Shown here: positions 1-59,380 of the stretch, in pieces | Layout: each line of letters begins with the position of its first letter | Numbering within the stretch: the stretch's first letter is position 1 | Source: a virus | Lineage: Duplodnaviria > Caudoviricetes | DNA: 64,000 nucleotides | Strand: one strand, 5' to 3' | Virus record (IMG/VR): IMGVR_UViG_2556921664_000001 | Span: 8,766-72,765 of that record | The notes under the pieces: generated by a model | Databases searched by the model: none | Seen by the model: the letters and a program-made list of their open reading frames with translations, nothing else | Told to the model about the DNA's origin: nothing | Made by a program: the position numbers and the translations under genes

Positions 1-193
1 TATAGGCCCTGTTTGTGAGAATCCTGCCAATACTGCAATGCCATGAGCTAATGCCAACAGCTTCTCCGACACAGTGCAATCCATATCCTTGAAGATAAAG
101 CTCATACATTCTTATGACCTTGGGGCCATCAACCGGATCTATTACCAGTTCCCCATTTTTGATGCAGTAACCAAATGGTATGTGTGAAATCAT
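1..193 (-). CDS. Recombinase-domain accessory protein, 5' part only (runs off the window)
   Basis: Not in the ORF track. ATG at 193 overlaps the TGA of the upstream recombinase (ATGA). Translates MISHIPFGYCIKNGELVIDP...RILTNRAY, with the P(F/Y)GY recombinase-domain start. Confidence 0.75.
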   Translation of the reverse strand, partial: MISHIPFGYCIKNGELVIDPVDGPKVIRMYELYLQGYGLHCVGEAVGISSWHCSIGRILTNRAY

Positions 194-1707
194 GCTCTCA
201 CCAGCCTTTCCCTTAATCTTAGTCCGCATTTCAGCTCAAATATGATTTCCTTTTTGGATAGCACAACTACCCTGTCTACTATTGCTGTAAAAATGTTATC
301 TGAAAACTCTTTCTGTACACCTTTCTTATCACATATGCCGATAAGTTCCCTAAGTGCTGTTTTACGGTCCACTTTACTTCTAATGTTTTCACCCACGCGA
401 ATCTTATCCCTGGCTTTACTTATTTTTATCAGCTCTGGTAATATTACCGAACTGCTGAGATTATGTTTTGCCTGCATCTCAAGAAGTAACGCCTCTTGGG
501 AATTCAGTCTATCCAGTTCAGATTCATTGTTCTCGCAGTGCGGAATCTCAGTGTTACTCAAGTCACTAAGCATTGTTTTTAAAACCCTGTTCTTGATACA
601 TATCAGCTTATTTACCATGGTACAGAATGCGTCCTTCAAGGCTGCCTCTTTTATTGCCTTCATAGAGCACTTTGATTTATCCCTTATGTGCTCCGGGCAG
701 GCCAGCAACGGATACTTAATGTCTCCAGTATGCTGGATTTTATGTCTGAGTACACTATTACATTCTCCGCAACATACTTTGCCGGAAAAAGCATATCTTT
801 TCTTATACTTGGTAGGGGCTTCTTTTGCCTCTTCCCGCAGTTCGGCGAGTTTCTGCAGTCTATCAAATACTTCCTGGGAAATAATTGCATCGTGATGCTT
901 CTCACAGTAATATGCATCCACATTATTTTTGTTCTTGTGGCGTTTCCCGTCACTGCCAATATAGGTGGACTGGAAGATTATATTTCCAGTATAAAAAATG
1001 TTGTTCTGTATCCTTTTTACTGTGGATGCGTCCCACTTTTTTCCTCTTGGGGATGGTATTGAAAGCTCATTTAACTTTTTTGCAATGGCATAACCTCCCA
1101 GTCCATCAAGTCCACATGTAAAGATTTTCTTCACTATTTCCGCCTTTTCATTATCCAATTTAATGACACCTTCTTCATATATGTAGCCGTAAGGCGGTGA
1201 AACCATCTTGTAAGTTCCATCCTGGAATCGTTTCTGAATTCCCCACTTTATATTCTCTGATAACGACTTTGATTCATTTTCAGCCAATGCACTTACAACT
1301 GACATATAGAGCTCTGCATCCATATCCTTTGTATTGATATTATCCTGCTCAAATTTTACATATATGCCTTTTACAGCAAGTGTCCTGACTGTTTCAAGAC
1401 AATCCAATGTATTTCTGGCAAATCTGCTGATTGACTTTGTGAGGATAAAATCTATCTTTCCTGCTATGGCATCACTAACCAACTGCTTAAAACCATCACG
1501 TCTGTTTATGGAGCGTCCGCTGATACCATCATCAGAATACACTCCTACAAAGGACCATTCCGGGTGTGCCCTAATGTACTCCTCATAGTGCTTCTTTTGG
1601 TTATCCAGGCTGGCCAACTGATCAGCGTCTGAGGTAGAAACTCTACAGTATGCAGCAACCTTCAGTTTATTCTCAGGTCTTTTATCAATAATTTTTATTG
1701 TAGGCAT
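190..1707 (-). CDS. Large serine recombinase (integrase)
   Basis: YCRVST catalytic Ser, DDGISG, KSISRFARN, PPYGY recombinase domain, CCGEC...C zinc ribbon, coiled coil. Start at 1707 chosen from the GGAGG RBS. Confidence 0.95.
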   Translation of the reverse strand: MPTIKIIDKRPENKLKVAAYCRVSTSDADQLASLDNQKKHYEEYIRAHPEWSFVGVYSDDGISGRSINRRDGFKQLVSDAIAGKIDFILTKSISRFARNTLDCLETVRTLAVKGIYVKFEQDNINTKDMDAELYMSVVSALAENESKSLSENIKWGIQKRFQDGTYKMVSPPYGYIYEEGVIKLDNEKAEIVKKIFTCGLDGLGGYAIAKKLNELSIPSPRGKKWDASTVKRIQNNIFYTGNIIFQSTYIGSDGKRHKNKNNVDAYYCEKHHDAIISQEVFDRLQKLAELREEAKEAPTKYKKRYAFSGKVCCGECNSVLRHKIQHTGDIKYPLLACPEHIRDKSKCSMKAIKEAALKDAFCTMVNKLICIKNRVLKTMLSDLSNTEIPHCENNESELDRLNSQEALLLEMQAKHNLSSSVILPELIKISKARDKIRVGENIRSKVDRKTALRELIGICDKKGVQKEFSDNIFTAIVDRVVVLSKKEIIFELKCGLRLRERLVRA

Positions 1708-1738
1708 TGGAACCACCTCCCTTCATCAGCATGAGATA

Positions 1739-4497: not shown

Positions 4498-6072
4498 TCA
4501 TAAAAGCACCTTGCGAGTCTTTGGTCCACTTTGCTGGGCAATTTTCTCCCCGCCAATAGGTTTGCCGGAAGCTGGCACAGCACGCTCTTTTCCCCACTCG
4601 CGAATTGCCTCAATTTTTTCTGGGCTGGTCTGGGACAATGGAATTACATTATTAAATGCTGTAATTATATTCTCCGAGGTCAGTGTAAAATTCTCATTTG
4701 CAATTGTCCTATATGCCAAATCGCGTACAGTGGACTCTAAATCAGCACCAGTGAAGCCATCACTGATTTGAACAATTTTATCTGCAAACTCCCCGCTAAA
4801 GTCCATGTCCAAGTATTTTTTCATATAGAGAGCCAATATTTCCCTGCGCTCATCAACTGTAGGAAGATCAACAAAGAACAGCTCGTCAAAACGACCACGC
4901 CGCAAAAGCTCCGATGGAAGCATAGAAACGTCATTCGCCGTTGCAACCACAAACACTTGCTTTTTACATTCCTGAAGCCAGAACAGGAACTGCCCTACCA
5001 TTCTTGTGGATACGCCGCCGTCTCCGGCACCGCCAGTGGCCCCAGACAGACCTTTTTCAATTTCATCAATCCACAAAATACAAGGAGATACATTCTCCGC
5101 AGTAGTCAGAGCATCCTTAAGCTGCTGTTCTGACTGGCCCACATAGCTTCCCTGTACTGTAGCAAAATCCAATCGATAAAGAGGAAGTCTCCAATTAGCA
5201 GATATGGATTTTGCAGATAACGATTTTCCGCACCCTGGAACCCCCACCAGCAATATGCCTCTTGGTGGTAACAGACCCTTGGCACGCAACATATCTCTTT
5301 TTTCAGGCTTCATCAATTCCTTCTTCTCATCCAACCAGCTCTGGAGCCCTTGCAATCCGCCCACATCTTTCAAACTGTCATCCACATCGATTTTTTCCAG
5401 CCCGGATATATCGGAAAATAAGCGATTTTTTGCATACCTAATTTCATCCATATCAGATTTTAAAATACGTTTGTTTGCAATCAGTGCCGCAATTACGTTT
5501 TCTGCCTCGATTTTGCTTACTCCTGCCAACGCAGAGGCTGCTTCCCGAATATCATTATTGTCCCATTCTATTTGGATTTCACTGCGATAATCGTCAATAT
5601 ACTCCTTAATAATGGAATACATTTCATCCTCTGTAGGCAAACCGATTTTTACAATCATCCCTTGCCGCTGCAAATGATTCCATACAGCATTGTGGGTCAT
5701 AACAATCACGACCCCACCTGTTTCATTAGCCAGATTTACCAATGCCAGTAATTGCTTTGATTCGCTGTTTTCAGTACTTATATCCGGAACCTCAGTCAAC
5801 ACAATGGTCAAATATTGTCTGCGCTGCATCTGCTCCGTTATATAATCTATGGCACCATAGAAGGATTTGTCTTCATTGACGACCTTGTCAGTAGTGATAT
5901 CATAAATTCCCCTAGAGGATGTGTGTACTAAAAATGACAGCTGCAGTTCCTCGGCCGTATTCTTGAGGATATCCAGTGTTCGCCCATGTTCTATGGTATG
6001 AATTGCAATAAAAGGTATTCTGGCGATAGAATATCTTTTTAACAGTTCCTTGCTTTTATTGATATCACTCAC
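4498..6072 (-). CDS. AAA+ ATPase, Ycf46-like (degenerate N-terminal AAA-like domain plus active C-terminal AAA)
   Basis: Walker A GVPGCGKS, Walker B ILWIDE, ATAN sensor, LLRRGRFD arginine finger. Confidence 0.9.
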
Positions 6073-8530: not shown

Positions 8531-11353
8531 TCATATATTTACAGCTTCACGCAGCTTTTCCCACACTTTAACCATTGCATACGTATCAAGACCACAGTAT
8601 TTAAGCAAATACCCACGATATTTTTCCAGTTCCTCTGGAGACATGTCAGCCATAGCTAGAAATGCATTTGATGCTTCAGTGCCATTATGAATACCTTCAA
8701 GATTGTGATAATCCAGCGCAGGATCATCCGGAAATAGTGCTGGTAACACAAGCTTGATAGAAGAACGTCCCTGCATTTCCTTGACATAATAATGCTCATT
8801 ATGAAACGGCATCTCAAGGTCTTGGATATGGTCATGGATATTCATCAAGTGTTCAGCCAAGTCAGGGAAAAGTTCCGCTAATTCCTTTACACGCCCTTGT
8901 TCGAATGATTTATGATATGCCAACGTACAACCATTCAACGTAATATCCATGCAAAGCTGCTCTGCTATCCCTCTACGTGGGTCTTCTCCAGGATATGCCA
9001 GATATTCCTTGTGTTTTAGTTCCCCTCCCTCCTGTTCAATATAGTGAAGGGAATACTGAAATACTATCTGTGCATAAGGCTTTGCATTATCATATTGTGG
9101 TACGGCCATTTGGCAAGATTCGAAATCAAGGAAATACAATGGATAGGATAACCCCACCAAAAATTTTTGAATCTCCTCTTTTTCAATATGCGGTGCCTTT
9201 TCAAAAAGCTCGTACTCTATCTGTATTTTCTTCACTCCTGCCTTATATAGCTGGTTGAAATCGATTATTCCCTGATGATAATATTGGATTTTTTTCTTCC
9301 ATTGTGGTGAGTTACCCGCGACATCAAATACATTAGGTTGTGGCAGGTGTCCGGTACAGTATTTCCAACAGTCGCACATTACACCATCTCTTTTGCAATG
9401 TTCATCAATGATATCTGGAGATTCGTCCTTTTGCTTCATGTACTCAGTAAATTTACCTAAATTAGCCTCCACCTCATCATGCTTGGCCTTTGCTTGTTCT
9501 GTAAAATCCACCACTGTGAAAAGATCCTGCAAATCAAGTTCTCCATGCCGCACATATTTATTGTTCAAATGCATTAAATAGACTCGATTCACCTCAAAAC
9601 CACACTTTTCCACCACAAAGCACTGGAAAGCTACATCATCATAATAATGATCCTTGATTTTCGCGGTACTCTTTACCTCATAAATATCCACTTTTTTCCC
9701 GCCAAGATGATGTAATATATCAACGCTACAGAAAAGATTGTCTACCGCAAAGGACGCCTCTGCAATGTACTCTTGCCCATTCTCCAAAAGTTCATTTGTC
9801 CGTGTAACCATGCTACCGAGATTGTTCTTATTAAAGGGCACAACAACACAACCATCAAATCGCTTTTGAGCCAGTATCCCCACCTCATTGCCAACAGCAA
9901 TACGTTCTTCAGAGGCCGGCGACTCATCGATAATCTCAGGCTTATTAGTTTTTAACCACAATGCCTTAGGGCACTGTGTCGCCATTACATACTTCGACTT
10001 GGAACAAATCAATGTAGATACCTCTGTAATCATATCGCCATATCCCAAATCTTTCATTTTTTGAATGAACTTTAAAAAATTTTTCTTAGTATTAGCTGCA
10101 CCCCATTCTCTGCAAATAACTACTGTAGTATTATCTCTCAGTACTATAGGATAATCTGTTAAAAATCTTGATTTATCCTTGTCTGGTACTTCAGAAAGAT
10201 TCTTTATCACGCCGTATGACCCCTGCAAATCCTTAGGAAATACTCTGCACAGTCCTTCATAATTAATATCAGGATGTTTTTCAACATAAAGGCCCACAAC
10301 AGATAATACAATTCTTCCTAATGCGGTTTGTTCACCATTAAATAGGTATCTTGAAGTTTTAGATTTGCCAGTTGGTTTATTATCATTATTTTTTTCTTTT
10401 TTAAATGATGTGCCATATTTTAGCGGCTTTGGTAGTTCATCTATGAATGAGCTGCTTACGTTGTTTACCATCGCCAGCTTATTAAATTGTTGCATATTTT
10501 CTTGTCCATACCTTGTATAAAACTGCTGACGCACATAATTTATTACATCAGGATTTTCACCAATCAGATAATTTGAGTTTCCACTTTTCGGGACAAGGAA
10601 ATAATTTAACGGGTCACAAAAACGTAGAAAATGTGCCTTGACAATATTCTTTTCTTCATCAGTCCAAATATCTGGGAGACGTCGTACATGATCTTCATTT
10701 TCTATCCAATCCGCCACCACCCCTCTAGGAAATAATTTATCACTTAAAGCTTCTGGCAAATAGAAATCATCACTTCTATGGTTATTTTCCTTTAAACTAG
10801 CAATATGTGCCAAATACCAACCTTTCCCATTTAAAATCCCCGTTTCTCTAGGATGTCCAAGAAATTGATTTTTGTTGGCTATCAACGCTTCTTCACTTTT
10901 TTTGCCATTATCATAGTGCATTGGATACATATTATCATTTAATAATTTAGCAAATTCCTCTGCTGTGGGAACAATGCCCTTGTGAGCCATATTATAAATC
11001 TCATGTACCTCAAAATTGCTGGCAAACACGTAGGAGCAACCGTCAGCCATAACAGTTTTTGCAGCGCGCCTATTTTTATACGGTCTTAGCCCGCGCTGTT
11101 CCCAATTCTTATTATTTCCGCCTTCATATTTTCTTATCAAAAATACCGCATCCGACCGGTCAATATACTCAACCAACATTTTGTGCCAAGCAATAGCGTA
11201 TTCGCTGTCTATTAGTGTAGGTTTAATACATTTCTCATACAATTCAGTAACGGTTTTTACTTCTTCATATTCTGGTAATGAAATTTCAAAATCAATTATC
11301 TTCTTTTCATTATGCCTTGAAAAATAATCTTGAATTCCTGTAAAAATTGCCAT
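8531..11353 (-). CDS. Multi-domain fusion: possible His-Me/HNH-like N-terminal domain, restriction-associated middle domain, and DUF2779-type PD-(D/E)xK plus RNase H-like nuclease
   Basis: The C-terminal ~490 aa start SKSKYVMATQCPKALWL and contain CSVDILH...IYEVKST (Cas4-like), a Cys cluster and YFLDFE...DTYAM. The N-terminus has WYLAHI...DPLNYFLVPK. Confidence 0.75.
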   Translation of the reverse strand: MAIFTGIQDYFSRHNEKKIIDFEISLPEYEEVKTVTELYEKCIKPTLIDSEYAIAWHKMLVEYIDRSDAVFLIRKYEGGNNKNWEQRGLRPYKNRRAAKTVMADGCSYVFASNFEVHEIYNMAHKGIVPTAEEFAKLLNDNMYPMHYDNGKKSEEALIANKNQFLGHPRETGILNGKGWYLAHIASLKENNHRSDDFYLPEALSDKLFPRGVVADWIENEDHVRRLPDIWTDEEKNIVKAHFLRFCDPLNYFLVPKSGNSNYLIGENPDVINYVRQQFYTRYGQENMQQFNKLAMVNNVSSSFIDELPKPLKYGTSFKKEKNNDNKPTGKSKTSRYLFNGEQTALGRIVLSVVGLYVEKHPDINYEGLCRVFPKDLQGSYGVIKNLSEVPDKDKSRFLTDYPIVLRDNTTVVICREWGAANTKKNFLKFIQKMKDLGYGDMITEVSTLICSKSKYVMATQCPKALWLKTNKPEIIDESPASEERIAVGNEVGILAQKRFDGCVVVPFNKNNLGSMVTRTNELLENGQEYIAEASFAVDNLFCSVDILHHLGGKKVDIYEVKSTAKIKDHYYDDVAFQCFVVEKCGFEVNRVYLMHLNNKYVRHGELDLQDLFTVVDFTEQAKAKHDEVEANLGKFTEYMKQKDESPDIIDEHCKRDGVMCDCWKYCTGHLPQPNVFDVAGNSPQWKKKIQYYHQGIIDFNQLYKAGVKKIQIEYELFEKAPHIEKEEIQKFLVGLSYPLYFLDFESCQMAVPQYDNAKPYAQIVFQYSLHYIEQEGGELKHKEYLAYPGEDPRRGIAEQLCMDITLNGCTLAYHKSFEQGRVKELAELFPDLAEHLMNIHDHIQDLEMPFHNEHYYVKEMQGRSSIKLVLPALFPDDPALDYHNLEGIHNGTEASNAFLAMADMSPEELEKYRGYLLKYCGLDTYAMVKVWEKLREAVNI

Positions 11354-11458: not shown

Positions 11459-11583
11459 AAATAACCATCCTTGTAATAAATGTAATACATCTTTAATTTA
11501 AGTTTTTTGACCTCTGCATTCACTTCTATAATCCTGCTATAAGAAGGATATATATTATTTAGCCTACTTTTTTAAGCATCAAA

Positions 11584-12153
11584 TTAAAATTCACACTCAA
11601 GACCGCAATCAAGCAGTTCCTCCTCCAGTTTTCTCTTCATGATAACAACACCGGTCTTCTTCATTGGGCAGTGTTTCTCGGACATGGAATGAATTACATT
11701 GTCGGCAGTAGAAAGAACATTCTCAATTTCTTTGACAGCCTTATTTACAATTTTATTGCAGACCGCATGTATATCAACATCGTTGAAGTCAGTGTTGTCT
11801 ATTTTAAGTGGCTGCATGCTATCTTCTTGGATATTAAAAGTATAGGCAATCCCGTTCTTATATAAAACAGACTCAACATATTTAAAAGCTTCCATCACAT
11901 GTTTTGATGGTACATGTTCCTTAATTTCATTCTCAGTATCAAACATAATTTTTTTGAAATGCTCATCCACCTTCTCAGCAGTTCTTTTGGCAATCTTGTT
12001 ACTCAATTCTCTGGTCTCTAAATACATTTCACGATACCTAGCGCCTTTTCTCTTCAGCATAACAGCTTTGTAAAGCTTTTTCTTGATGTTCTTGCCCCTA
12101 CGTTTAACATTTGCCATTTTATTCAACTCTCCCCTGTCCCCAAAGTAAACCAT
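11584..12153 (-). CDS. Hypothetical basic helical protein (189 aa)
   Basis: Long ORF downstream of the PolC-like gene; Lys/Arg-rich N-terminus. Confidence 0.7.
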   Translation of the reverse strand: MVYFGDRGELNKMANVKRRGKNIKKKLYKAVMLKRKGARYREMYLETRELSNKIAKRTAEKVDEHFKKIMFDTENEIKEHVPSKHVMEAFKYVESVLYKNGIAYTFNIQEDSMQPLKIDNTDFNDVDIHAVCNKIVNKAVKEIENVLSTADNVIHSMSEKHCPMKKTGVVIMKRKLEEELLDCGLECEF

Positions 12154-12258
12154 CCTGCATTTATAATCATTTATTACTTTCTATACACATCTTTAAAATC
12201 CTGCTGTATGGAAAAATATTATTATCCTAAACTATTGAGGAAATGCGGCCATGCTGGT

Positions 12259-14310
12259 TTATTCTGCATATACATCAATATAAGCCTGCTGATACTCTTT
12301 TGGATAGTGAACTTTATAGTACACCATACGATATAAAAGAGCTGTATAGTCAATGGCCTGGGCTCTGGAAACCAAATATCTGATCTTTTGGCAGGAGTCA
12401 ATATACCAATCTGGTATATTATGTTCTTTTAGAATTGCCACCATATCAGGTTTTATGCCACGTCCCTTGCGTACAGCTTCCATTATTTTAACTGCCGTCA
12501 TTGGTTCAATTCCCATCCCAATAAGGTATGTCATAATATCATCACGTGTAGCTATAACCTCTTTGAAGGTACACACCCCATCCTTAAGCAGAAGTTCGGT
12601 ATTATTATTCCATGCCCCGGAATCAAATGATGCCAATGCAATGATTTTTACAAGCTCATTCATACTGCTTGGCTTTACCATGGACATAATCTGGTAAAAC
12701 AGCTTGCTTAGTTGAATTCCCATTTGCCCAGATGTTCCCTTATTCTCTTTCATGACATCACCAAATGATTCTGGCTTCAAGGAACATAAACATGATAGCG
12801 TTTCAGCATCGCTAAGGGATATATCTCTAATCCGGTAATTAGTACTGTCCTCCATTTTTTTCAGAAAATCCATCTCCCTAAGTGGCAGCATATCAAGCTT
12901 TATCAGATCCCCTAATAGTGCGCGATAATCAAAATAAGTTGTTAACCACTGATCATCAGTATCTTCGGATATATACTGAGTGGGCGTAAAACAATGAACA
13001 TCCATATCCTGGGGAATCAGCATCAATGCGGCTGGATGAACGCCTGTATCTGACGGGATATTTATTATCCCCGGTTTAAAGACGTTATTTTCCCCCAATA
13101 TTTCCTTTATATATGAACGAAGCATCGGGATCTGCTGAGCAGAATAACAAATGTCAATATCCGGTATTTTTCTGCCATCAAAGCCAAGAAAAACTGCATA
13201 AGACATGTCCCAGCCGTCTTTTATCAGCGGTTCACCGCAAATAGGACAATTTTGATCAGGTAAATCGGCTCCAAATACGTATTCATTATCAGTAGCAAAT
13301 TCACTGTGTTTACATTTTGGGCAGCGCCAATGGGGCGGAAGAGGATTAATATCCGTAATCCCCAACAGATTTGCAACCAATGAGGAACCTACGGAACCGC
13401 GGGAGGTAGTACTATAACCATTCCCATGGGTTTTATCTGCAAGCTTCCGGGAAATTAAATACAGCGACGAATAACCATTCCTGGTGATAATTGACAGTTC
13501 CTTATCAAGTCTTTCTTTCACCACCGCAGGGAGATTTTGACCATATATCCTGTGCGCTGCTTCGTATGAAAGATTTTTTACAGTTTCTTCCGCCTCAGGC
13601 AAAACAGGCAGATGGATTCCTTCCGGTATTGGTCTTAGTCGGTCAATCATATCTGAAATAAGCTGCGGGTTATTGATCACAACATCATAAGCTGTTTTTT
13701 CTCCAAGATAACTGAAGGATTTCAACATTTCATCTGTTGTTTGTAAAACTTCTATACCTTGGTCAGCAGCCACTACGGACTTATTAATTTTTGCCGCTAA
13801 CTCCACAAGTTTTATATTGGTGTCACACAAATCATCATCTGGCTGAATTTCCAAGTAATCATAAAAGGCGGCAATTTCCAAAAGCCTTTCTTCACTTTTA
13901 TGTGAGGCTATGGCCTGTATAAGCTGACCATCAAGCCCTGCAGCCCCTACGAGTAATCCTTCACGGTGTTGTTCCAAAATTTCTTTTGATATACTATGAG
14001 CCTCGTTTCCTGGCTTGGTATGTAATAATGTAACCAAGTTATACAGATTTTGAAGACCAATCTTATTTTTGGCCAAAACAATCACGTGATATACAGATAA
14101 TAAATCTGCATCTTCCGTCGACAATAAAATTTCCATGCCGTAGATTATTTTGATGTCAAGATTATCCCCCTCAACAATTTGCATAGCCTCCGGAAACGCC
14201 TTTACTGAACAGATATCAGTGATTGCCACAGCTTTCCGACCTCTCCGGGCGGCTGTACTAATATATTCTTTCACGGACATTTCATTAGCTATTTTACTTG
14301 ATAATTTCAT
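12259..14310 (-). CDS. Minimal PolC-like family-C DNA polymerase (degenerate PHP, Zn finger, palm/fingers; no OB, exonuclease or C-terminal duplex/clamp-binding region)
   Basis: RGSVGSS, CPKC...CPIC, KIPDIDI, KLDML, TRDDIM, VRKG, PDWYIDSC and YKVHYP all match PolC motifs, but the protein is only 683 aa. Confidence 0.88.
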   Translation of the reverse strand: MKLSSKIANEMSVKEYISTAARRGRKAVAITDICSVKAFPEAMQIVEGDNLDIKIIYGMEILLSTEDADLLSVYHVIVLAKNKIGLQNLYNLVTLLHTKPGNEAHSISKEILEQHREGLLVGAAGLDGQLIQAIASHKSEERLLEIAAFYDYLEIQPDDDLCDTNIKLVELAAKINKSVVAADQGIEVLQTTDEMLKSFSYLGEKTAYDVVINNPQLISDMIDRLRPIPEGIHLPVLPEAEETVKNLSYEAAHRIYGQNLPAVVKERLDKELSIITRNGYSSLYLISRKLADKTHGNGYSTTSRGSVGSSLVANLLGITDINPLPPHWRCPKCKHSEFATDNEYVFGADLPDQNCPICGEPLIKDGWDMSYAVFLGFDGRKIPDIDICYSAQQIPMLRSYIKEILGENNVFKPGIINIPSDTGVHPAALMLIPQDMDVHCFTPTQYISEDTDDQWLTTYFDYRALLGDLIKLDMLPLREMDFLKKMEDSTNYRIRDISLSDAETLSCLCSLKPESFGDVMKENKGTSGQMGIQLSKLFYQIMSMVKPSSMNELVKIIALASFDSGAWNNNTELLLKDGVCTFKEVIATRDDIMTYLIGMGIEPMTAVKIMEAVRKGRGIKPDMVAILKEHNIPDWYIDSCQKIRYLVSRAQAIDYTALLYRMVYYKVHYPKEYQQAYIDVYAE

Positions 14311-14412
14311 AATTATTCCCCCTAAGTTTAAAACAATAATGTATAATACTAATATACGTTGAAATTTAAATTGCGCTCCAAAATCAATCAGCCTGATACG
14401 GAGGTGTGAGTT

Positions 14413-15588
14413 TTGACAGAAGGTAACAATCTGACAGCTACAGAAAAATTAAGAAAAGCCCGAATCAGAATAATGAACAAACAGCCTTTTTTCGCTTCCC
14501 TTATTATGCTCCTTACACCAGTTGAAGATGATTCTATAGGAACAGCAGCGACTGATTCAAAAAACCTATTCTATGCTCCTTCTTATATAGAAAAATTGTC
14601 TATTGAGGAAGTTATTTTTGTGTATCTGCATGAGATTCTCCACTGTGCCTTAGGACATATCTGGAGACAAAAAGATAAGGATCATAGACTTTGGAATATT
14701 GCCACTGATTATGCAATTAATGGTATGTTACATAACGATATAAAACTAAATCATTTTCTCAAAATGCCACCAAGTCTGCTATATAAAGAAACATATTATG
14801 GTATGTCAGCGGAAGAAATATATGATTCCCTTAAGTCAGATATTGCTAGAGCTTTCGTTAGCGTTAGCGTTGGCAATGGTGATGATGGTGATGATGAGCC
14901 TCAAAACCATGTTTTATGGAAAAATGCTGATAAAAACGAACGGATAAACTGGCAATACAATACCAAGATTGCAATTAAAAATGCAGAAAGATATGGTAAA
15001 GCACCTTCATATCTTACAGAAATAATTAAGCGGTTAAAACCACCACAAAAGGATTGGCGAACTCTATTGAATGAATTTGTCCAAGAGGAAATAAATGATT
15101 TTTCACTTATGCCGCCGGACAACCGTTTTGATGGGGATTTTTTCATTTTTTCCTTTTCCGATACAACAGAAGTGGTAAAAGACTTGCTGTTCTTTGTTGA
15201 TACATCTGGTTCCATGCGAATAAATGAATTAGAGGCTTGTTATTCGGAAATAAACGGTGCCCTCCAGCAATTCAATAGGCAACTACAGGGTAAACTTGTT
15301 TTTTTTGATGCAGTTGTCCATGAACCATTATACGATTTTGACGACATCAAAGATATCAGATCTGTATGTCCTATAGGCAGGGGCGGTACCTGTTTTTATG
15401 CTATATTTGATTTTTTAAAAGAATATAAGAATGCTCATAATCCCATTGCGGGTGTCATTATTTTAACTGATGGACAATGTGACTACGATGACATCGATGC
15501 ACCAGATTTTCCTGTTCTTTGGGTATTTACTACCCATGACAACAATCCACCCTTTGGCTTATCTACTACCATCGAAGTCAGCCCATAA
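14413..15588 (+). CDS. DUF2201-type metallopeptidase-like plus vWA domain protein
   Basis: HEILH (HExxH), NIATDYAIN, MIDAS elements VDTSGSM, GGT and LTDG; TTG start with GGAGG RBS. Confidence 0.88.
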   Translation: MTEGNNLTATEKLRKARIRIMNKQPFFASLIMLLTPVEDDSIGTAATDSKNLFYAPSYIEKLSIEEVIFVYLHEILHCALGHIWRQKDKDHRLWNIATDYAINGMLHNDIKLNHFLKMPPSLLYKETYYGMSAEEIYDSLKSDIARAFVSVSVGNGDDGDDEPQNHVLWKNADKNERINWQYNTKIAIKNAERYGKAPSYLTEIIKRLKPPQKDWRTLLNEFVQEEINDFSLMPPDNRFDGDFFIFSFSDTTEVVKDLLFFVDTSGSMRINELEACYSEINGALQQFNRQLQGKLVFFDAVVHEPLYDFDDIKDIRSVCPIGRGGTCFYAIFDFLKEYKNAHNPIAGVIILTDGQCDYDDIDAPDFPVLWVFTTHDNNPPFGLSTTIEVSP

Positions 15589-15639
15589 CAGTTATCCTAA
15601 TATGACGCATATTAATTTTGTACGAGGGAGGAACATATA

Positions 15640-16755
15640 ATGTCTTATATGGATATGATTAGTAATGAAAATTATTCACAAATTTCCTGTAATAAATTTA
15701 TCAATATCATGTCTGCCCTGTATTCCGAAGGAGATTTTTCCAAACAACCAACCAAAATGTTATGGGGCCAGCCAGGTGTTGGTAAATCCCAGGCAGTACA
15801 ACAATTTGCCAACATACTGTCAGAAAAAACCGGTAAAAAAACTAATGTAAAAACTGTTTCCTTACTGCTGATGAATCCTATTGACCTTAGAGGTATTCCA
15901 GCCAAATCGAAAAATGAACGGAACGAAGATGTGGCCAAATGGTTATCCCCGGATATATTCAAATTGGATCCCAGTGATGATGTTATCAATATCTTATTTT
16001 TGGACGAAATATCAGCGGCTCCACCATCTGTTCAGGCTGCGGCATATCAAATATGCCTTGACAAACGCATCGGCGAGCATGTTCTCCCGACCAATACTAT
16101 AGTAATATGTGCCGGCAACAGGGTTTCAGACAAAGCTGTGGCATTTAAAATGCCTAAGCCCCTGTCCAATCGTCTTACTCATTTTGAAATAATTGCTGAT
16201 TTAGATTCATGGCGTTCATGGGCTTACCAACACAATATCAATGACTCAATCATTGCGTTTATTACATGGCGACCAGATTACCTTAATAAATTTGACCCCT
16301 CAAACGATGATGTGGCTTTTCCTACTCCCCGTTCCTGGGAATTAGTCAACACTTATATGCAATTTGGCTTTGAGGAAATGTTTGAATGTATAGCTGGAAC
16401 CGTCGGACTGGCAACAGCCATTGAATTAAAATCATTTATTGATCTTTCCGTAACACTACCTACTTTTAGTGATATTATTGCCAACAAAGCCGAATTACCA
16501 GCTAATAATGATCCTGCTGTAATGTATGCTATTTCTTCAATGATTACTTCAAATGTAGTGCAAAATGGCTCTACGCTTAAACTGAAAGAAAAGAATAATC
16601 TGTTTAAATATATTGGCTCCTTTAAGCATGATGAATACATTCTCCTTACATTGCAAGATATTATAAAAAATTGCCCTGAATTTAATAAATATCTTTTAAA
16701 AAACAAAGATACCATCAAATTTATTAAGCAATTTCGCAATGATTTAACTAATTAA
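15640..16755 (+). CDS. MoxR-like AAA+ ATPase partnering the vWA protein
   Basis: Walker A GQPGVGKS, Walker B ILFLDE, AGNR, PLSNRLTH, PTPRSWE. Confidence 0.88.
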   Translation: MSYMDMISNENYSQISCNKFINIMSALYSEGDFSKQPTKMLWGQPGVGKSQAVQQFANILSEKTGKKTNVKTVSLLLMNPIDLRGIPAKSKNERNEDVAKWLSPDIFKLDPSDDVINILFLDEISAAPPSVQAAAYQICLDKRIGEHVLPTNTIVICAGNRVSDKAVAFKMPKPLSNRLTHFEIIADLDSWRSWAYQHNINDSIIAFITWRPDYLNKFDPSNDDVAFPTPRSWELVNTYMQFGFEEMFECIAGTVGLATAIELKSFIDLSVTLPTFSDIIANKAELPANNDPAVMYAISSMITSNVVQNGSTLKLKEKNNLFKYIGSFKHDEYILLTLQDIIKNCPEFNKYLLKNKDTIKFIKQFRNDLTN

Positions 16756-16798: not shown

Positions 16799-17908
16799 AT
16801 GGATACAAATATTTCTGCAGAAAATTTAATTTTAGATCACATGGCACTTAATACCATATATATCATCAGCAAAGAAGCATTGGCAAAATTCCCAGATAAA
16901 TCTATAATTATCGGCGTGGACTACAAAATGGAATTTTTAACAGGGACTGAAGATTATGATTTAGTATGCTGTTATAAATTCCAAAGATATGATTATGTAT
17001 ATTATATTTTTTTAAATCTTACAGGTTGGAGACACCTCCTTATAATTAACGAACCAATTAACGAAATTGGCCCCGCAAAAACATATCACAATCCTAATAT
17101 TTGTAGCAAAAAAGCTGTTGAGGAAGCAAAAGAATTACCCCGTGTTTTTTTTAATCACTTTCACCTATACTATGATATAGTCAACGATAAAATTCACTGT
17201 GAATATAATATTAACAGCTATATGTATAGAAATGAAATAAACGCTTTATTTCATTCTCTACTTACTTTTCTTGCACTTAACCCGTCAGAGCATCCAGATG
17301 TTTTACAATTTTTGCAAAATAATATTGTTGATAGATACATAAAAAAAAGAGAAAGCATTCTATTTACCTTTAGCAAAGACAGAACGACTGTTAGCCATTT
17401 TACCTATATTGATTTTTATAATGAATCAGCTAAACATATATTAGTTGCAGCCGTATATATTGATCAAACTGATCAAAAATGCTATTTTTTGGGTGGGCAT
17501 AAAGCAAGGTGTATTGATGATTCATTGAGGTTAAGCAATAATAATAAATACTACATTGACAATCAAAACATGCCCAATAGGAAATATTATGATTTGTCAA
17601 AAATGAATGTTGATGATAATGAATTTAGTTATTTTATCGAAAATTTTTACCCACATAAAGCCTCAATCGCCAAAATAGACTATTACTATGATAGTGGCTT
17701 ATTAATTAGGTCAACTGATGATCGTATTAAAATAATTTTTAATACCTACAAAGAAAAGGAAGATGGTATTTTGTTCCTTTTCAAGCGTAATATAGTAATC
17801 GATGAGAAATTACAACTAAAATTTAAAAAATTACCAAAAAAAGCCAAACGCCTTGATACTGAACACTATCGAAAAGTTATTGATCGTTACTTAGCGACAA
17901 TAATATAA
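16799..17908 (+). CDS. Hypothetical protein (369 aa), very AT-rich
   Basis: Long ORF in the operon with vWA/AAA; Tyr/Ile/Asn-rich; no motif recognised. Confidence 0.7.
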   Translation: MDTNISAENLILDHMALNTIYIISKEALAKFPDKSIIIGVDYKMEFLTGTEDYDLVCCYKFQRYDYVYYIFLNLTGWRHLLIINEPINEIGPAKTYHNPNICSKKAVEEAKELPRVFFNHFHLYYDIVNDKIHCEYNINSYMYRNEINALFHSLLTFLALNPSEHPDVLQFLQNNIVDRYIKKRESILFTFSKDRTTVSHFTYIDFYNESAKHILVAAVYIDQTDQKCYFLGGHKARCIDDSLRLSNNNKYYIDNQNMPNRKYYDLSKMNVDDNEFSYFIENFYPHKASIAKIDYYYDSGLLIRSTDDRIKIIFNTYKEKEDGILFLFKRNIVIDEKLQLKFKKLPKKAKRLDTEHYRKVIDRYLATII

Positions 17909-25159: not shown

Positions 25160-25696
25160 TCACATATAGTCCGTTACACCGCGGGCAATGGCCCTCGCAA
25201 ACTCATCCTGGTTAAACCGTAAAAGCTTCTCATCATCCTCATTGGAAATAAATGCCAACTCCACAAGGACTGCTGGCATATCCGTATTGGTAAGGACATA
25301 GAGTCCGTTCTTACCCGGGGTTGCCATCTTAACTCCCCTGTCCACGGTTCCAAGGTGATCTACAATCTGGGACTGGATGCATTCAGCCAGATGCTTTCCA
25401 TCACTGGAACCAGCACAGTACCATGTTTCAGTTCCCTCCGCATATGGGGACTCCACACTGTTACAGTGAATGGAAATAAAAAGATCTGCATCAAGGTTAT
25501 TAGCCTCACTGCAGACCTCATATAATTCATCACTCTGTAACACAGCAGTTTCAATCCCCACGGCATTAAGGTAATGCTCTACCAGCTTACCAACGCTTAG
25601 TACCACATCACATTCCCTAAGACCTGTGACATCACTTACCGCCCCCGGATCTGGTACTCCATTTGGCGCATGGCCTGGATTAATAAATACCTTCAT
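25160..25696 (-). CDS. Endolysin, N-acetylmuramoyl-L-alanine amidase (Amidase_3 type)
   Basis: INPGH, E, ISIHCN and LVELAFISN zinc-amidase motifs; no cell-wall-binding domain. Confidence 0.92.
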   Translation of the reverse strand: MKVFINPGHAPNGVPDPGAVSDVTGLRECDVVLSVGKLVEHYLNAVGIETAVLQSDELYEVCSEANNLDADLFISIHCNSVESPYAEGTETWYCAGSSDGKHLAECIQSQIVDHLGTVDRGVKMATPGKNGLYVLTNTDMPAVLVELAFISNEDDEKLLRFNQDEFARAIARGVTDYM

Positions 25697-25697
25697 A

Positions 25698-25871
25698 TTA
25701 CTTCTCTCCTCTCTTTTCAACATGGTGCTTTCCAGCACCGCCAATATAACCTAAAAGACCGCTGGCAATACTCATGCTAAGCTCATTAAGATTTGAGTAA
25801 ATGGCTATGATGAGAGCTGCGGATAAGGCTACAACTACAACCAAGTCTGTAACATTAATTCTTTCTATCAC
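25698..25871 (-). CDS. Holin-like two-TM protein
   Basis: Two hydrophobic segments and a basic C-terminus; GTG start at 25871 with GGAGGT RBS; directly upstream of the endolysin. Confidence 0.65.
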   Translation of the reverse strand: MIERINVTDLVVVVALSAALIIAIYSNLNELSMSIASGLLGYIGGAGKHHVEKRGEK

Positions 25872-57344: not shown

Positions 57345-59294
57345 TTACTTTTTATAAAATTTTCCTTCATAGCCTTCAGCTTTGAGCTGCAGTCCAGCCG
57401 CCCAAGGAGGGGTCTTGCTCATAAGCTGGCAGATGGTTTCTACATCTGTACTTTCAGGGCACTCCACTATAATTTCATCATGCACATGAGCTACAATGCG
57501 GTATTCCTTAAATGTCGCCATGGCATACATCAGAATATCCCTGCTCATGCCCTGCACTATGTTCTCCACAAATTTGGGGCCATAGCTTTCAAGCCGCTCC
57601 CACTTCTTTGTGGTACCATTTGAACCTTCATAGGTAACAGACTCACTGCCAAATTTATTGACTCCCATTTTGGGCTTCACATAAGACAGTCTTCTTCCGC
57701 TTGGAAGTTCAATAAAGAGCATACCGCTCTTGCAAATAAACTTAATTCCGTGTGTGCTTGTTGTGGTATGCTGGATGACAGCTTCTTTTACGGCCCTATC
57801 AACGGCCCACCAGAAATTTACGATATTTGGATTTGCATTTCTCCACGCATCCACAAGTGGCTGGAGCTCTTCTTCCTTCATGCCGGACTCCAATGCTCCC
57901 ATTGCAATAAGAGCACCTACAGCCCCTCCATATCCGCAGCTAAGCGTTGCCTGTTTACCTTTTTGCCTGAGTTCCCCGTTCTCGCCATTTTTTACGACCT
58001 TACAATGAAACATTCTTGAAGCCGTGGCACAGTATATATCTTCCCCGCGAGCAAAGGTATCCAGCACCCACTGTTCTCCTGCAAGGTAAGCCAACACTCT
58101 GGCTTCTATAGCGCTAAAGTCAGCCACTATAAACTTATACCCATCCTGAGGAACAAAGGCTGTGCGGATGAGCTGTGAGAGCGTATCCGGGATATCATCA
58201 TAGAGCAACTCCATTACTTTAAACGGGGCGGTTTTTACAAGCTGTCTTGCTTCTGCAAGGTCGCTGATATGGTTCTGGGGAAGGTTCTGTAATTGAATCA
58301 GCCGCCCCGCGAAACGCCCAGTCCTGTTTGCCCCATAAAACCTGAACATTCCCCTGGCCCTGCCATCACTGCATACTGCATTTTCCATTGCCTGATACTT
58401 CTTTACAGATGACTTCGCCAGCTTCTTCCTTATTCCCAATACCTTCTGTACATGGGGCGGTGCTGTCGGGAGCATTGCACTAACAGCCTTTTTATCCAGG
58501 CTGGTAACTTCCATCCCCTGCTCAATAAGCCAGTCTTTTAACTGCATAACGCTGTTTGGGTTCTCAAGCCCCGTTATATCCTTAATCTCGTTCATAAGAG
58601 CATCACGTGACTTGGCATCAAAGCAAATTGCATTTTTTGCAAATTCCATATCCACGGCAATGCCCCTGTCGTTTATCTGCTGATCCAGCCAAAACTCCTC
58701 CCACACAGAATCTGGTACTGGGAACTTTTGAAGCCTATCCTGTATGGCCATCTCGACCTCTACATCGCGGATATTGTATTTCTTGAATCTGTCCCACTTA
58801 TCCTTATCATGCATTGGCATGTTCCGGGTTCGGCCCCCATTGGCCTTAGTAGGCTTGCACGGAACACAGAAATACCTTATCAGCTCCTTACCCTCGGTTA
58901 TTTTCTGCTGCTCTAATCCCAGTACCGCCCCGGCACCTGCAAGAGACATTGGAAGTCCCATATAAGCACACCATGTCATGGAGCACTTCCACGATGCGGG
59001 ACTCAGATAATGTGTATCAAGGGAATAATACCTGCGAAGGTACTCGGACAGGCAGACACGTTCAAACTGGCTATTGAAAGCCCATTTTGTAATACTTGGG
59101 TCAGACAAAGCACCAATTATCTCATCTGGGATTTTCTCTCCCTGGGCGATATCAATGACAGTCACATTGCCGCCATCAACCGAGTAAGCAAATAACAGGA
59201 TTTCAAAATTGGGTGACTCAGCATATTTATAGACACCACATTTAGCAATATCCACATCAGAATACGTTTCCAAATCGATACTGATTGTATTCAT
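57345..59294 (-). CDS. Family-A DNA polymerase with 3'-5' exonuclease
   Basis: IDLET, AFNSQFE, RDVEVE, TGRFAG, ADFSAIEAR, KQATLSCGYG, HVHDE; start moved to MNTISIDLE. Confidence 0.93.
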   Translation of the reverse strand: MNTISIDLETYSDVDIAKCGVYKYAESPNFEILLFAYSVDGGNVTVIDIAQGEKIPDEIIGALSDPSITKWAFNSQFERVCLSEYLRRYYSLDTHYLSPASWKCSMTWCAYMGLPMSLAGAGAVLGLEQQKITEGKELIRYFCVPCKPTKANGGRTRNMPMHDKDKWDRFKKYNIRDVEVEMAIQDRLQKFPVPDSVWEEFWLDQQINDRGIAVDMEFAKNAICFDAKSRDALMNEIKDITGLENPNSVMQLKDWLIEQGMEVTSLDKKAVSAMLPTAPPHVQKVLGIRKKLAKSSVKKYQAMENAVCSDGRARGMFRFYGANRTGRFAGRLIQLQNLPQNHISDLAEARQLVKTAPFKVMELLYDDIPDTLSQLIRTAFVPQDGYKFIVADFSAIEARVLAYLAGEQWVLDTFARGEDIYCATASRMFHCKVVKNGENGELRQKGKQATLSCGYGGAVGALIAMGALESGMKEEELQPLVDAWRNANPNIVNFWWAVDRAVKEAVIQHTTTSTHGIKFICKSGMLFIELPSGRRLSYVKPKMGVNKFGSESVTYEGSNGTTKKWERLESYGPKFVENIVQGMSRDILMYAMATFKEYRIVAHVHDEIIVECPESTDVETICQLMSKTPPWAAGLQLKAEGYEGKFYKK

Positions 59295-59317
59295 ATATTT
59301 CCTCCATAGAAAGCAAA

Positions 59318-59342
59318 GCGGTAGAGGAAAATCCTCTACCGC
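59318..59342 (-). terminator. Hairpin/attenuator between the SSB and polymerase genes
   Basis: Perfect 11-bp stem GCGGTAGAGGA/TCCTCTACCGC followed by TTTGCTTT on the minus strand. Confidence 0.65.
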
Positions 59343-59380
59343 CGCCTTCATATACTCAGCTATATTCCATACTGGATACC

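What the first reader, a model, noticed from the sequence alone, without database searches (positions are those of the whole stretch)
12259..14310. Prophage-borne minimal PolC: catalytic core intact, processivity and proofreading parts removed
Seen: one uninterrupted 683-codon ORF keeps the PolC catalytic aspartates (PDID, KLD), RGSVGSS, the Zn finger, TRDD and VRKG. It lacks the N-terminal/OB region, the exonuclease insertion (IIYGME runs straight into YHVIVLAK) and the PHP metal ligands (TDH becomes TDI; the DVH segment is missing). It also lacks most of the segment between the VF.(A/P)G and TG.HP motifs (thumb region) and everything after YKVHYP; FPKAH has become VSRAQ. Several clean in-frame deletions suggest selection rather than decay. 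Established: family-C polymerases have a Pol-beta-like nucleotidyltransferase palm. Inference: a non-replicative, possibly template-independent or signal-synthesising nucleotidyltransferase repurposed for conflict. The phage already has its own family-A polymerase.
Basis: partly seen in the sequence, partly recalled or inferred. Interest (0 to 1): 0.8.

Follow-up and report, generated by a model that had tools for sequence, protein, structure and literature searches.

The report
Pruned PolC paralog on prophage island
A prophage cargo island in a rumen Selenomonadaceae bacterium carries an intact, selected but heavily cut-down copy of the replicative DNA polymerase PolC; it belongs to a large family of "mini-PolC" proteins of mobile elements that I could not find described in print, is almost certainly not a replicase, and has an untested function.

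Summary
The ORF is real. It is a PolC derivative (NF001688, 656.6 bits, below the 873 cut-off), and its AlphaFold model is confident (pLDDT 88; TM 0.88 to G. kaustophilus PolC).

Three corrections apply:
- The missing exonuclease is a lineage trait. Both host PolCs lack it too, and this has been in print since 2013.
- The N-terminal, OB and C-terminal losses are shared with a diverged family of short PolC paralogs (683-961 aa) found in prophage and mobile-element islands, often behind a WYL regulator.
- The "core" is not intact. Only about 59% of PolC-invariant positions survive, 3 of 9 PHP ligands remain, the thumb is cut by 36 residues, and the nucleotide pocket is remodelled.

The gene is selected: dN/dS is 0.36 against 684-aa relatives from gut metagenomes. 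Six of 28 family members have lost catalytic aspartates independently, so polymerisation is not the family's common function. This member keeps its aspartates.

Best reading: a non-replicative replicase-derived accessory protein. A signal-making or template-independent activity is neither supported nor excluded. This scan has met mini-PolC families before on other DNA.

The parts
12259..14310 (-). Gene for the 683-aa pruned PolC paralog (P0001), stop codon included
   Evidence: ORF list and translation. NCBIfam PolC NF001688 scores 656.6 bits against a cut-off of 873; Pfam finds PHP, DNA_pol3_alpha and finger. AlphaFold model: pLDDT 88.2, pTM 0.87. Foldseek TMq 0.88 to 3F2B.
14311..14412 (-). 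Own 5' region: RBS AGGGGG 8 nt before the ATG, inside a divergent intergenic spacer shared with the DUF2201 operon; one weak promoter-like site at 14370-14343
   Evidence: Sequence and consensus scan. The scan is not evidence of function.
13750..14310 (-). Degenerate PHP domain (aa 1-187). It keeps 3 of the 9 metal ligands (D32, E60, H75). HxH, DVH and two internal stretches of 18 and 27 aa are missing, and TDH reads TDI.
   Evidence: Alignments. The nine-residue motif HHDHEH[C/H]DH is taken from PMC12926913.
13063..13749 (-). Palm, first part (aa 188-416), with SRGSVGSS (13381-13404), the four-Cys zinc finger (13234-13323) and PDID (13153-13164)
   Evidence: This is one of the two most constrained regions (dN/dS 0.18-0.22 for codons 301-450).
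13048..13062 (-). Junction NIPSD, where 36 thumb residues of PolC are missing; modelled as a tight beta-hairpin
   Evidence: Pairwise alignment with host PolC. The model has strands at 410-417, 421-424 and 428-431.
12811..13047 (-). Palm, second part (aa 422-500), with the third catalytic aspartate in KLD (12892-12900); the GHDD that follows in PolC reads PLRE
12262..12810 (-). Fingers (aa 501-683) with TRDD and VRKG. The pocket motif FPRAH reads VSRAQ (12358-12372), and the protein ends 13 aa after KVHYP.
   Evidence: Pocket residues are from PMC12592400. dN/dS is 0.16 for codons 551-650.
11584..12153 (-). Downstream same-strand gene of 189 aa (probably starting at 12117). It is helical, matches no family, and is kept next to the PolC paralog in all four loci of this clade.
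   Evidence: No Pfam, PHROG or PADLOC match. The Atlas gives no usable hit.
8531..11353 (-). Next same-strand gene: a 940-aa protein with a C-terminal DUF2779 (Cas4-like nuclease) domain, conserved after the 189-aa gene in the related loci
   Evidence: Pfam PF11074, E 6.6e-45. Weak Cas4 match in PADLOC. Synteny in L009, L023 and L024.
57345..59351 (-). The prophage's own family-A DNA polymerase (context, not part of the island)
   Evidence: phrog_17, E 3.2e-146.
190..1716 (-). Large serine recombinase, the first of three in a row at the left end of the element (context)
   Evidence: Pfam Resolvase, Recombinase and Zn_ribbon_recom. Two more lie upstream in the contig.

Best explanation
The gene encodes a folded, selected, non-replicative derivative of PolC. 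It is the most heavily pruned member seen here of a large family of 'mini-PolC' paralogs (PHP-palm-fingers only) carried by prophages and other mobile islands of Selenomonadaceae and other Bacillota.

Most likely mechanism: it acts as a replicase-like scaffold rather than a DNA-copying enzyme. The palm and fingers could still hold a nucleotide, a primer end or a PolC partner. It cannot be tethered to the clamp, cannot grip duplex DNA (no thumb, OB or HhH) and cannot proofread. On the prophage it would sense, titrate or interfere with PolC-dependent replication of competing elements, while the phage itself replicates with its own family-A polymerase.

Shown: descent from PolC, the anatomy, the fold, purifying selection, mobile-island context, and repeated loss of catalytic residues in relatives.

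Inferred: that it works by binding rather than catalysis, and that the target is replication of competitors.
For: Descent and anatomy:
- PolC match of 656.6 bits; 41% identity to host PolC.
- No OB, thumb or C-terminal clamp motif (host PolC ends QMSLF); PHP keeps 3 of 9 ligands.
- 118 of 290 PolC-invariant columns are changed or deleted. These include three of the four pocket aromatics: H->F562, F->V647, H->Q651 (PMC12592400).

Fold:
- pLDDT 88, TMq 0.88 to 3F2B.

Selection:
- dN/dS 0.36-0.37 against three 684-aa variants, Fisher p = 4e-9.
- Chance of no stop among 159 neutral substitutions: 4e-4.
- Differences avoid columns conserved in the other short PolCs (13/213 versus 76/470, p = 2e-4).

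Family:
- Short forms group apart from real PolCs.
- 6 of 28 lost catalytic Asp in four clades. One is the sister form, found in cultured Schwartzia succinivorans (WP_072935869.1).
- About 10 of 21 more distant short representatives are also degenerate.

Context:
- The gene lies between serine recombinases and the lysis/tail genes of a prophage.
- Relatives sit beside recombinases, GmrSD, type I R-M, NACHT, AntA, DUF2779 and AAA ATPases.
- In five loci relatives lie downstream of a WYL/WCX regulator.
- The 683-aa form was found in none of 200 other genomes of the family.
Against: - This member keeps all three catalytic aspartates, the SRGSVGSS phosphate-binding motif and the zinc finger.
- Its most constrained parts are the active-site palm and the fingers (dN/dS 0.16-0.22). 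That is what an active enzyme would show.
- No partner, ligand or target is known.
- No PADLOC model matches it or its immediate neighbours convincingly.
- The mobile/defence context was not compared with control loci.
- The selection estimate is really one independent comparison (the window against one closely knit group).
- In this clade the gene has left the WYL-headed operon of its relatives, so its role may have changed.
Confidence: 0.45

Rival explanations
1. It is still an enzyme: a distributive, clamp-independent, proofreading-free nucleotidyltransferase. Possible activities are short-patch or template-independent DNA synthesis, or synthesis of a small nucleotide product. It would work alone or with the 189-aa protein and the DUF2779 nuclease encoded downstream.
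For: - The catalytic triad (PDID, KLD), SRGSVGSS, TRDD, VRKG and the zinc finger are all kept in the window and in the three 684-aa variants.
- The lowest dN/dS falls on the palm (0.18-0.22) and the fingers (0.16).
- Substitutions at the pocket phenylalanine leave PolC active in vitro (PMC12592400), so V647 alone does not kill activity.
- The model keeps the PolC palm-fingers fold.
Against: - The sister lineage and five other family members lost the aspartates yet remain intact. About half of the distant short representatives did too.
- The thumb, OB and duplex-binding parts that hold primer-template DNA are gone.
- About 40% of PolC-invariant positions are changed, including pocket residues.
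- There is no neighbouring receptor or effector of a known signalling defence system, and no PADLOC hit.
- Retention of motifs across only 13% divergence is weak evidence.
Confidence: 0.27
2. It is a functionless relic: an old mini-PolC gene that left its WYL-headed operon and is decaying slowly as prophage cargo.
For: - It has the highest dN/dS of the measurable island genes (0.36 against 0.02-0.26).
- It has extra deletions compared with every relative.
- The operon partners of its relatives (the 313/315-aa and 278-aa proteins, WYL) are absent from the window.
- The 683/684-aa form is rare: one genome of 201, plus a few ruminant gut metagenomes.
Against: - dN/dS is well below 1 (p = 4e-9).
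- There is no stop or frameshift in four diverged copies (chance 4e-4 for stops alone).
- Substitutions avoid family-conserved columns (p = 2e-4).
- The deletions remove whole structural elements and leave a confidently folded model.
- The RBS is strong.
Confidence: 0.13
3. It is a non-catalytic accessory part of the element's own replication or maintenance machinery, for example recruiting or modulating host replisome parts for the prophage, and has no role in conflict with other elements.
For: - It descends from a replisome protein.
- Some relatives lie next to further PolC-derived fragments in tandem (L018/L028: 467 aa plus 863 aa; L019: 481, 895 and over 719 aa).
- Earlier notes of this scan report DnaB-like partners in other lineages. 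I did not test that here.
Against: - In the window it lies about 40 kb from the phage replication module (45-63 kb).
- It sits in the cargo region between the lysis genes and the recombinases.
- All known PolC contact sites for the clamp and the C-terminal region are missing.
- The same family occurs in chromosomal islands with no replication genes nearby.
Confidence: 0.12

Closest known systems
PolC, the replicative C-family DNA polymerase III alpha of Bacillota (G. kaustophilus PolC, PDB 3F2B/3F2C; E. faecium PolC 9QPC; NCBIfam NF001688)
   Same: Clear homology over PHP, palm, zinc finger and fingers (E 4.7e-148 to 3F2B; TMq 0.88). The catalytic triad and the RGS motif are kept.
   Different: - About half the length.
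- No N-terminal domain, OB, thumb (36 residues cut), (HhH)2 domain or C-terminal clamp motif.
- PHP metal site destroyed.
- 41% of invariant positions changed.
- Below the family's curated cut-off.
- Encoded in prophage cargo, in addition to two full PolCs and a DnaE in the same genome.
Naturally exonuclease-less PolC of Clostridia and Negativicutes (Timinskas et al., NAR, PMC3919608)
   Same: The PHP domain is not interrupted by a DnaQ-type exonuclease. This trait is shared with both host PolCs.
   Different: Those are full-length replicases of about 1250-1330 aa with an intact nine-residue PHP site and all DNA- and clamp-binding parts. This protein has none of these.
Short PolC paralogs of mobile islands (683-961 aa; for example WP_072935869.1, 'PHP domain-containing protein' of Schwartzia succinivorans). 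I found no description of them in print. They may be among the unclassified 'DnaEX' extra copies that PMC3919608 set aside.
   Same: - The protein starts at the PHP domain and ends after the fingers.
- Long branches, placed apart from real PolCs.
- Island/prophage context.
- P0001 groups with P0009/P0128 and P0003.
   Different: - P0001 has four further losses: HxH, two PHP stretches, the thumb, and the last roughly 50-100 residues.
- It is not behind a WYL regulator.
- Unlike its sister, it keeps the catalytic aspartates.
DnaE2/ImuC, the error-prone C-family polymerase with an inactive PHP site
   Same: An extra, non-essential C-family copy with a degenerate PHP active site (PMC12926913).
   Different: - Different branch: it is DnaE-type (NF004225 scores only 67.5 bits against a cut-off of 939).
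- DnaE2 keeps the thumb, the HhH domain and usually the OB domain, and works with ImuA/ImuB. No such partners are present here.
Inactive polymerase homologs used as scaffolds (ImuB and other inactivated Y-family proteins, PMC12926913)
   Same: A precedent for a polymerase fold kept under selection for a non-catalytic role. Several mini-PolC relatives are likewise catalytically dead.
   Different: An unrelated fold and pathway. This member has not lost its catalytic residues.

Membership tests
PolC-type DNA polymerase III (NF001688 / TIGR01405 equivalogs) | Score at or above the curated whole-protein cut-off | tested here: not met
   656.6 bits against 873; 604.4 against 1043.
PolC-type DNA polymerase III | Catalytic acidic triad in the Pol-beta-like palm, plus the RGS phosphate-binding motif | tested here: met
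   PDID at aa 383-386, KLD at 471-473, SRGSVGSS at 303-310.
PolC-type DNA polymerase III | N-terminal domain and OB fold before the PHP domain | tested here: not met
   The protein starts about 7 residues after the position of the HxH motif. The host PolC has 391 residues before that motif.
PolC-type DNA polymerase III | Nine-residue PHP metal site HHDHEH[C/H]DH | tested here: not met
   Only D32, E60 and H75 remain. The motif is taken from PMC12926913.
PolC-type DNA polymerase III | DnaQ-type exonuclease inserted in the PHP domain | tested here: not met
   Absent, but also absent from both host PolCs and known to be absent in this lineage. This row therefore does not discriminate.
PolC-type DNA polymerase III | Thumb subdomain splitting the palm | tested here: not met
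   36 of 48 residues between VF.PG and TG.HP are missing.
PolC-type DNA polymerase III | (HhH)2 duplex-binding domain and C-terminal clamp-binding motif | tested here: not met
   The protein ends 13 aa after KVHYP. The host PolC continues for about 150 aa and ends QMSLF. There is no PF14579 match.
Short PolC paralogs of mobile islands (family defined here, not a curated one) | PHP-palm-fingers only; branches with the other short forms, apart from full-length PolCs | tested here: met
   FastTree with SH-like support 100 for P0001/2 + P0009 and 85 with P0003. Long-branch attraction is not excluded.
Short PolC paralogs of mobile islands | Location in a WYL/WCX-headed same-strand gene row | tested here: not met
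   Five related loci have it. The window, L009, L023 and L024 do not.
Known anti-phage defence systems (PADLOC-DB 2.0) | Match of the protein to any defence-system model | tested here: not met
   No match for P0001 or the 189-aa neighbour. The DUF2779 protein has only a weak Cas4 hit, and an AAA gene about 6 kb away has IetA-like hits.
DnaE2/ImuC error-prone polymerase | Membership of the DnaE2 branch with ImuA/ImuB-type partners | tested here: not met
   NF004225 scores 67.5 bits against a cut-off of 939. No such neighbours are present.
Signal-synthesising nucleotidyltransferases (CD-NTase-like) | Production of a nucleotide second messenger and a linked receptor-effector gene | not testable with these tools
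   No biochemical data. No recognisable receptor or effector domain was found next to the gene.

The most novel reading that the evidence does not exclude
The thumb-less, clamp-less PolC core is a live nucleotidyltransferase or a replicase decoy. It would be the sensing or signalling part of an undescribed prophage-borne anti-phage system, together with the 189-aa protein and the DUF2779 multi-nuclease. More broadly, the mini-PolC proteins of Bacillota mobile elements would form a new class of immune or interference modules built from replisome parts.
Probability: 0.12. Interest if true: 0.85.

Novelty: new variant of a known kind. Interest (0 to 1): 0.52.

Why it matters
C-family polymerases are regarded as dedicated bacterial replicases and are antibiotic targets. 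A widespread family of cut-down PolC copies on mobile elements, many of them catalytically dead, would show the replicase core being reused for something other than copying chromosomes. Possible uses are interference with, or sensing of, rival replication. No such role is documented for this fold.

This member is the smallest seen here and still has its active site. That makes it a convenient protein for asking what a bare PHP-palm-fingers core can do. The family also matters for annotation: these proteins are easily mislabelled as PolC or as fragments.

Tried and rejected
- RNA evidence: no RNA holder was listed for the stretch. Only DNA runs of ruminant gut metagenomes hold parts of it.
- Synonymous-difference test on contigs encoding identical relatives: only 0-3 differences, uninformative.
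- IMG/VR scan with the short-family alignment: one distant hit only; the scan depends on two peptide patterns.
- tblastn against phage records: only matches of about 35% identity to unannotated short 'Bacteriophage sp.' contigs and a few large phages; no close relative.
- PADLOC and relaxed Pfam searches of the unknown operon partners in related loci: nothing significant.
- ESM Atlas for the 189-aa neighbour: no usable hit.
- Literature searches for truncated or mini PolC, WYL plus Pol III, and C-family polymerase plus anti-phage: no description found.
- The first maximum-likelihood tree run did not finish, so FastTree was used instead.
- Evans et al. 2008 (PolC structure paper) is not held. 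Domain limits are therefore approximate and come from alignment to 3F2B and to the host PolC.
- No complex prediction was run. A pair with the stand-alone DnaQ-like exonuclease would probably pass merely by likeness to solved PolC structures. I make no claim that the protein binds the 189-aa neighbour.
- Rejected idea: that the missing C-terminus is encoded by the downstream gene. The 189-aa protein has no similarity to PolC.
Full report
**The object.** The finding's coordinates hold one open frame of 683 codons, on the minus strand (12259-14310). The ATG is the first possible start after an upstream stop. It lies 8 nt after AGGGGG, in a 103-nt spacer that separates it from a divergently transcribed DUF2201/MoxR operon.
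- Pfam finds PHP, DNA_pol3_alpha and DNA_pol3_finger.
- The NCBIfam PolC equivalog NF001688 scores 656.6 bits, far above noise but below its 873-bit cut-off.
- The nearest solved structures are G. kaustophilus PolC (3F2B, E 4.7e-148) and E. faecium PolC (9QPC).
- An AlphaFold model built on 122 homologs is confident (pLDDT 88.2, pTM 0.87). It superposes on 3F2B with a TM-score of 0.88 over the query.

**What is kept and what is missing.** I compared the protein with the host's own PolC, P0121 (41% identity; alignment A1). It lacks the following:
- everything before the PHP domain, plus the first PHP strand with HxH
- 18 and 27 residues inside the PHP domain, the second including DVH
- 36 of the 48 residues between VF.PG and TG.HP, which form the thumb
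- all but 13 residues after KVHYP. This removes the end of the fingers, the (HhH)2 domain and the C-terminal QMSLF clamp motif.

Of the nine PHP metal ligands (motif from PMC12926913), three remain.

I counted columns that are invariant, with at most one exception, in 80 full-length PolCs. P0001 keeps 172 of 290:
- PHP: 57 of 91
- palm: 71 of 115
- fingers: 36 of 68

PMC12592400 describes four pocket aromatics as strictly conserved in PolC. By alignment, three of them appear changed here: SHGT->SFDS, and FPRAH->VSRAQ. That paper also shows that substitutions of the phenylalanine leave PolC active, so this change is not proof of inactivity. 'Catalytic core intact' is therefore only partly right. 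The acidic triad and the phosphate-binding loop are intact. The DNA-holding parts are gone and the nucleotide pocket is remodelled.

**Which losses are specific to this gene.** The genome (2.68 Mb, 31 contigs) has two full-length PolC genes (1298 and 1272 aa, 78% identical) and a DnaE on the same contig.
- Both PolCs lack the exonuclease insertion and keep a perfect PHP site.
- In about 200 genomes of the same family, PolC open frames are about 1250-1330 aa.
- Exonuclease-less PolCs of Clostridia and Negativicutes were catalogued in PMC3919608.

The exonuclease 'deletion' is therefore inherited from the lineage.

The terminal truncations are also not unique. A protein search found a 684-aa protein at 87% identity and many proteins of 832-961 aa at 41-48% identity. 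These begin just before the PHP domain and end soon after the fingers. In a FastTree phylogeny they sit apart from the full-length PolCs on long branches. P0001/P0002 group with P0009 (863 aa) and P0003 (843 aa) (long-branch effects are not excluded).

A search of 1.84 billion cluster representatives found many more such short forms of 740-1000 aa, including ones with the FPKAH motif that the G. kaustophilus PolC also carries. The ESM Atlas also lists several large clusters of PHP + DNA_pol3_alpha proteins of 650-900 aa in Bacillota and phages.

Specific to the P0001 clade are the loss of HxH, the two PHP deletions, the thumb deletion and the shorter C-terminus.

**Selection.** Three 684-aa variants occur in gut metagenomes (P0002/L009, P0123/L023, P0125/L024).
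- Against the window they give dS 0.17, dN 0.06 and dN/dS 0.36-0.37. The excess of synonymous change is significant (Fisher p = 4e-9).
- The chance that 159 random substitutions create no stop codon is 4e-4.
- Differences avoid columns that are at least 90% conserved in the other short PolCs (13/213 against 76/470, p = 2e-4).
- Constraint is strongest on the active-site palm (codons 301-450, 0.18-0.22) and the fingers (551-650, 0.16). It is weakest at the PHP N-terminus and at codons 451-550 (0.76-0.86).
- The gene is nevertheless the least constrained of the measurable island genes (neighbours 0.02-0.26). dS varies from 0 to about 2 along the island, which shows recombination.

This amounts to one independent comparison, so it shows selection somewhere on these two lineages and nothing finer.

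**Catalytic residues in the family.** Among 28 short paralogs, six have lost at least one catalytic aspartate:
- P0005: PDIV
- P0024: PDIN and KMN
- P0015: PDIV
- P0009: EMIEI and LLS, with the RGS motif also lost
- P0019: PLIE and KFN
- P0068: PVID and KFN

These six lie in four clades. None of the full-length PolCs whose motifs were printed shows a loss. The dead forms are not sequencing accidents: their 90% clusters hold 15-49 members. The P0009 type occurs in the cultured Schwartzia succinivorans DSM 10502 as WP_072935869.1, named only 'PHP domain-containing protein'. Among more distant short representatives, about ten of 21 with complete ends are degenerate at these sites. Polymerisation therefore cannot be the function that keeps the family as a whole. 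P0001 and its three variants do keep every motif.

**Context.**
- To the right of the gene lie a lysis amidase (25160-25744) and then tail, head, portal and terminase genes.
- Further right is a replication module with a helicase-primase and a family-A polymerase (57345-59351).
- To the left lie three large serine recombinases (window 190-1716 and two more upstream in the contig).

The gene thus sits in a roughly 23-kb cargo stretch of a prophage, or of a composite element. Its neighbours there include a DUF2779 fusion protein, two AAA ATPase operons, a DUF2201/MoxR pair and a methyltransferase-specificity fusion. L023 shows the same island order without the DUF2201/MoxR pair.

More distant short PolCs lie in the following settings:
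- in another PolA-encoding prophage beside serine recombinases, GmrSD and a type I R-M system (L010)
- beside a NACHT protein, AntA and DUF3987 (L012)
- in a chromosomal island with DUF2779 and AAA genes (L015)
- next to further PolC-derived fragments in tandem (L018/L028, L019)

In five of these loci a WYL/WCX regulator heads the same-strand gene row that ends with the short PolC. The window's clade lacks this. I did not compare these contexts with control loci, so 'defence island' is an impression, not a statistic. No PADLOC model matches the protein. The 683-aa form was found in none of 200 other genomes of the family. Open frames of short-paralog length (821-928 aa) appear in at least five of them: G085, G046, G025 twice, G070 and G122.

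**Interpretation.** A replicase role can be set aside. The parts that hold DNA and the clamp are missing, the host has two PolCs and a DnaE, and the phage has its own polymerase. Decay is unlikely given the selection tests and the clean fold.

Two live readings remain. The family-wide pattern of repeated loss of catalytic residues, with the fold retained, favours a binding or scaffold role. I take that as the most likely reading (0.45): a replicase look-alike that binds a nucleotide, a primer end or a PolC partner, and is used by the element to sense or disturb the replication of competitors. The target is inferred, not shown.

The retained active site and the pattern of constraint in this clade keep the enzyme reading alive (0.27). 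A relic (0.13) and a role in the element's own replication (0.12) cannot be excluded.

**Novelty.** I found no paper describing these short PolC paralogs. PMC3919608 set aside strongly diverged extra copies as 'DnaEX' without study, and these may include some of them.

Earlier notes of this scan report 'mini-PolC' genes in many other genomes, some behind WYL regulators or next to nucleases. One later check there warned that polymerases in such gene rows are often live and that the defence context lacked a control. My own results agree with both points.

Relative to print this is a new variant of a known protein kind. Within the scan it is a further member, notable for being the smallest and for keeping its active site.

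Noticed in passing
own genome, contig C1:133042-136815 and C1:166203-169979 (outside the window; loci L001, L002): There are two full-length exonuclease-less PolC genes (1298 and 1272 aa, 78% identical, both with an intact PHP site and a C-terminal Q-M-[ST]-L-F). They lie 33 kb apart with the DnaE gene between them. Two same-genus genomes (G027, G111) each show a second PolC-length match at another place.
   Followed up: partly
own genome, contig C2:107848-108333 (locus L007): A stand-alone 196-aa frame matches the exonuclease segment of the PolC model (positions 423-583, E 9.3e-42). It is a candidate trans-acting proofreader for the exonuclease-less PolCs.
   Followed up: no
L018:899-2302 and L028:8247-9650; L019:8522-9967 and 12934-15090: Further PolC-derived ORFs stand in tandem with the short PolC. 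One is a 467-aa palm+fingers-only protein. In L019 a 481-aa and a >719-aa very diverged copy (25-39% identity) flank the 895-aa one.
   Followed up: partly
L010, L012, L019, L015, L028 (related loci): A WYL/WCX regulator (328-398 aa) heads a same-strand gene row that ends in the short PolC. Conserved unknown 313/315-aa and 278-aa proteins lie between them in L010 and L028, and the 278-aa protein is also present in L018. In L015 the WYL gene ends 1 nt before the PolC paralog starts.
   Followed up: partly
window 11524-11538 and 12191-12205 (minus strand): The motif AGCAGGATT[AT]TA[AG]A[AG] occurs exactly in the two spacers that follow the PolC paralog and the 189-aa gene. A 2-mismatch copy lies at 21838-21852, just inside the start of the methyltransferase ORF (21787). 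It may be a shared regulatory site. With up to 2 mismatches there are 7 matches in all, against 1.8 expected.
   Followed up: partly
window 16799-17908 versus L009:566-1651 and L023:6776-7861: The 369-aa gene next to the PolC paralog is replaced in the related islands by an allele with only 44% amino-acid identity (dS about 2), while flanking genes are 86-99% identical. The island is a recombination mosaic. The DUF2201/MoxR pair (14413-16755) is absent from L023.
   Followed up: partly
window 190-1716 and own genome C1:7070-8629, C1:3094-4962 (locus L025): Three large serine recombinase genes lie in a row on the minus strand at the left end of the element, with an AAA_25/KaiC-like ATPase gene between the second and third.
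   Followed up: partly
window 4498-6072: A 524-aa AAA ATPase matches the PADLOC IetA models (E 4e-32). It lies in a tightly conserved five-gene row (dN/dS 0.02-0.05 against L023). No IetS-like protease was looked for.
   Followed up: no
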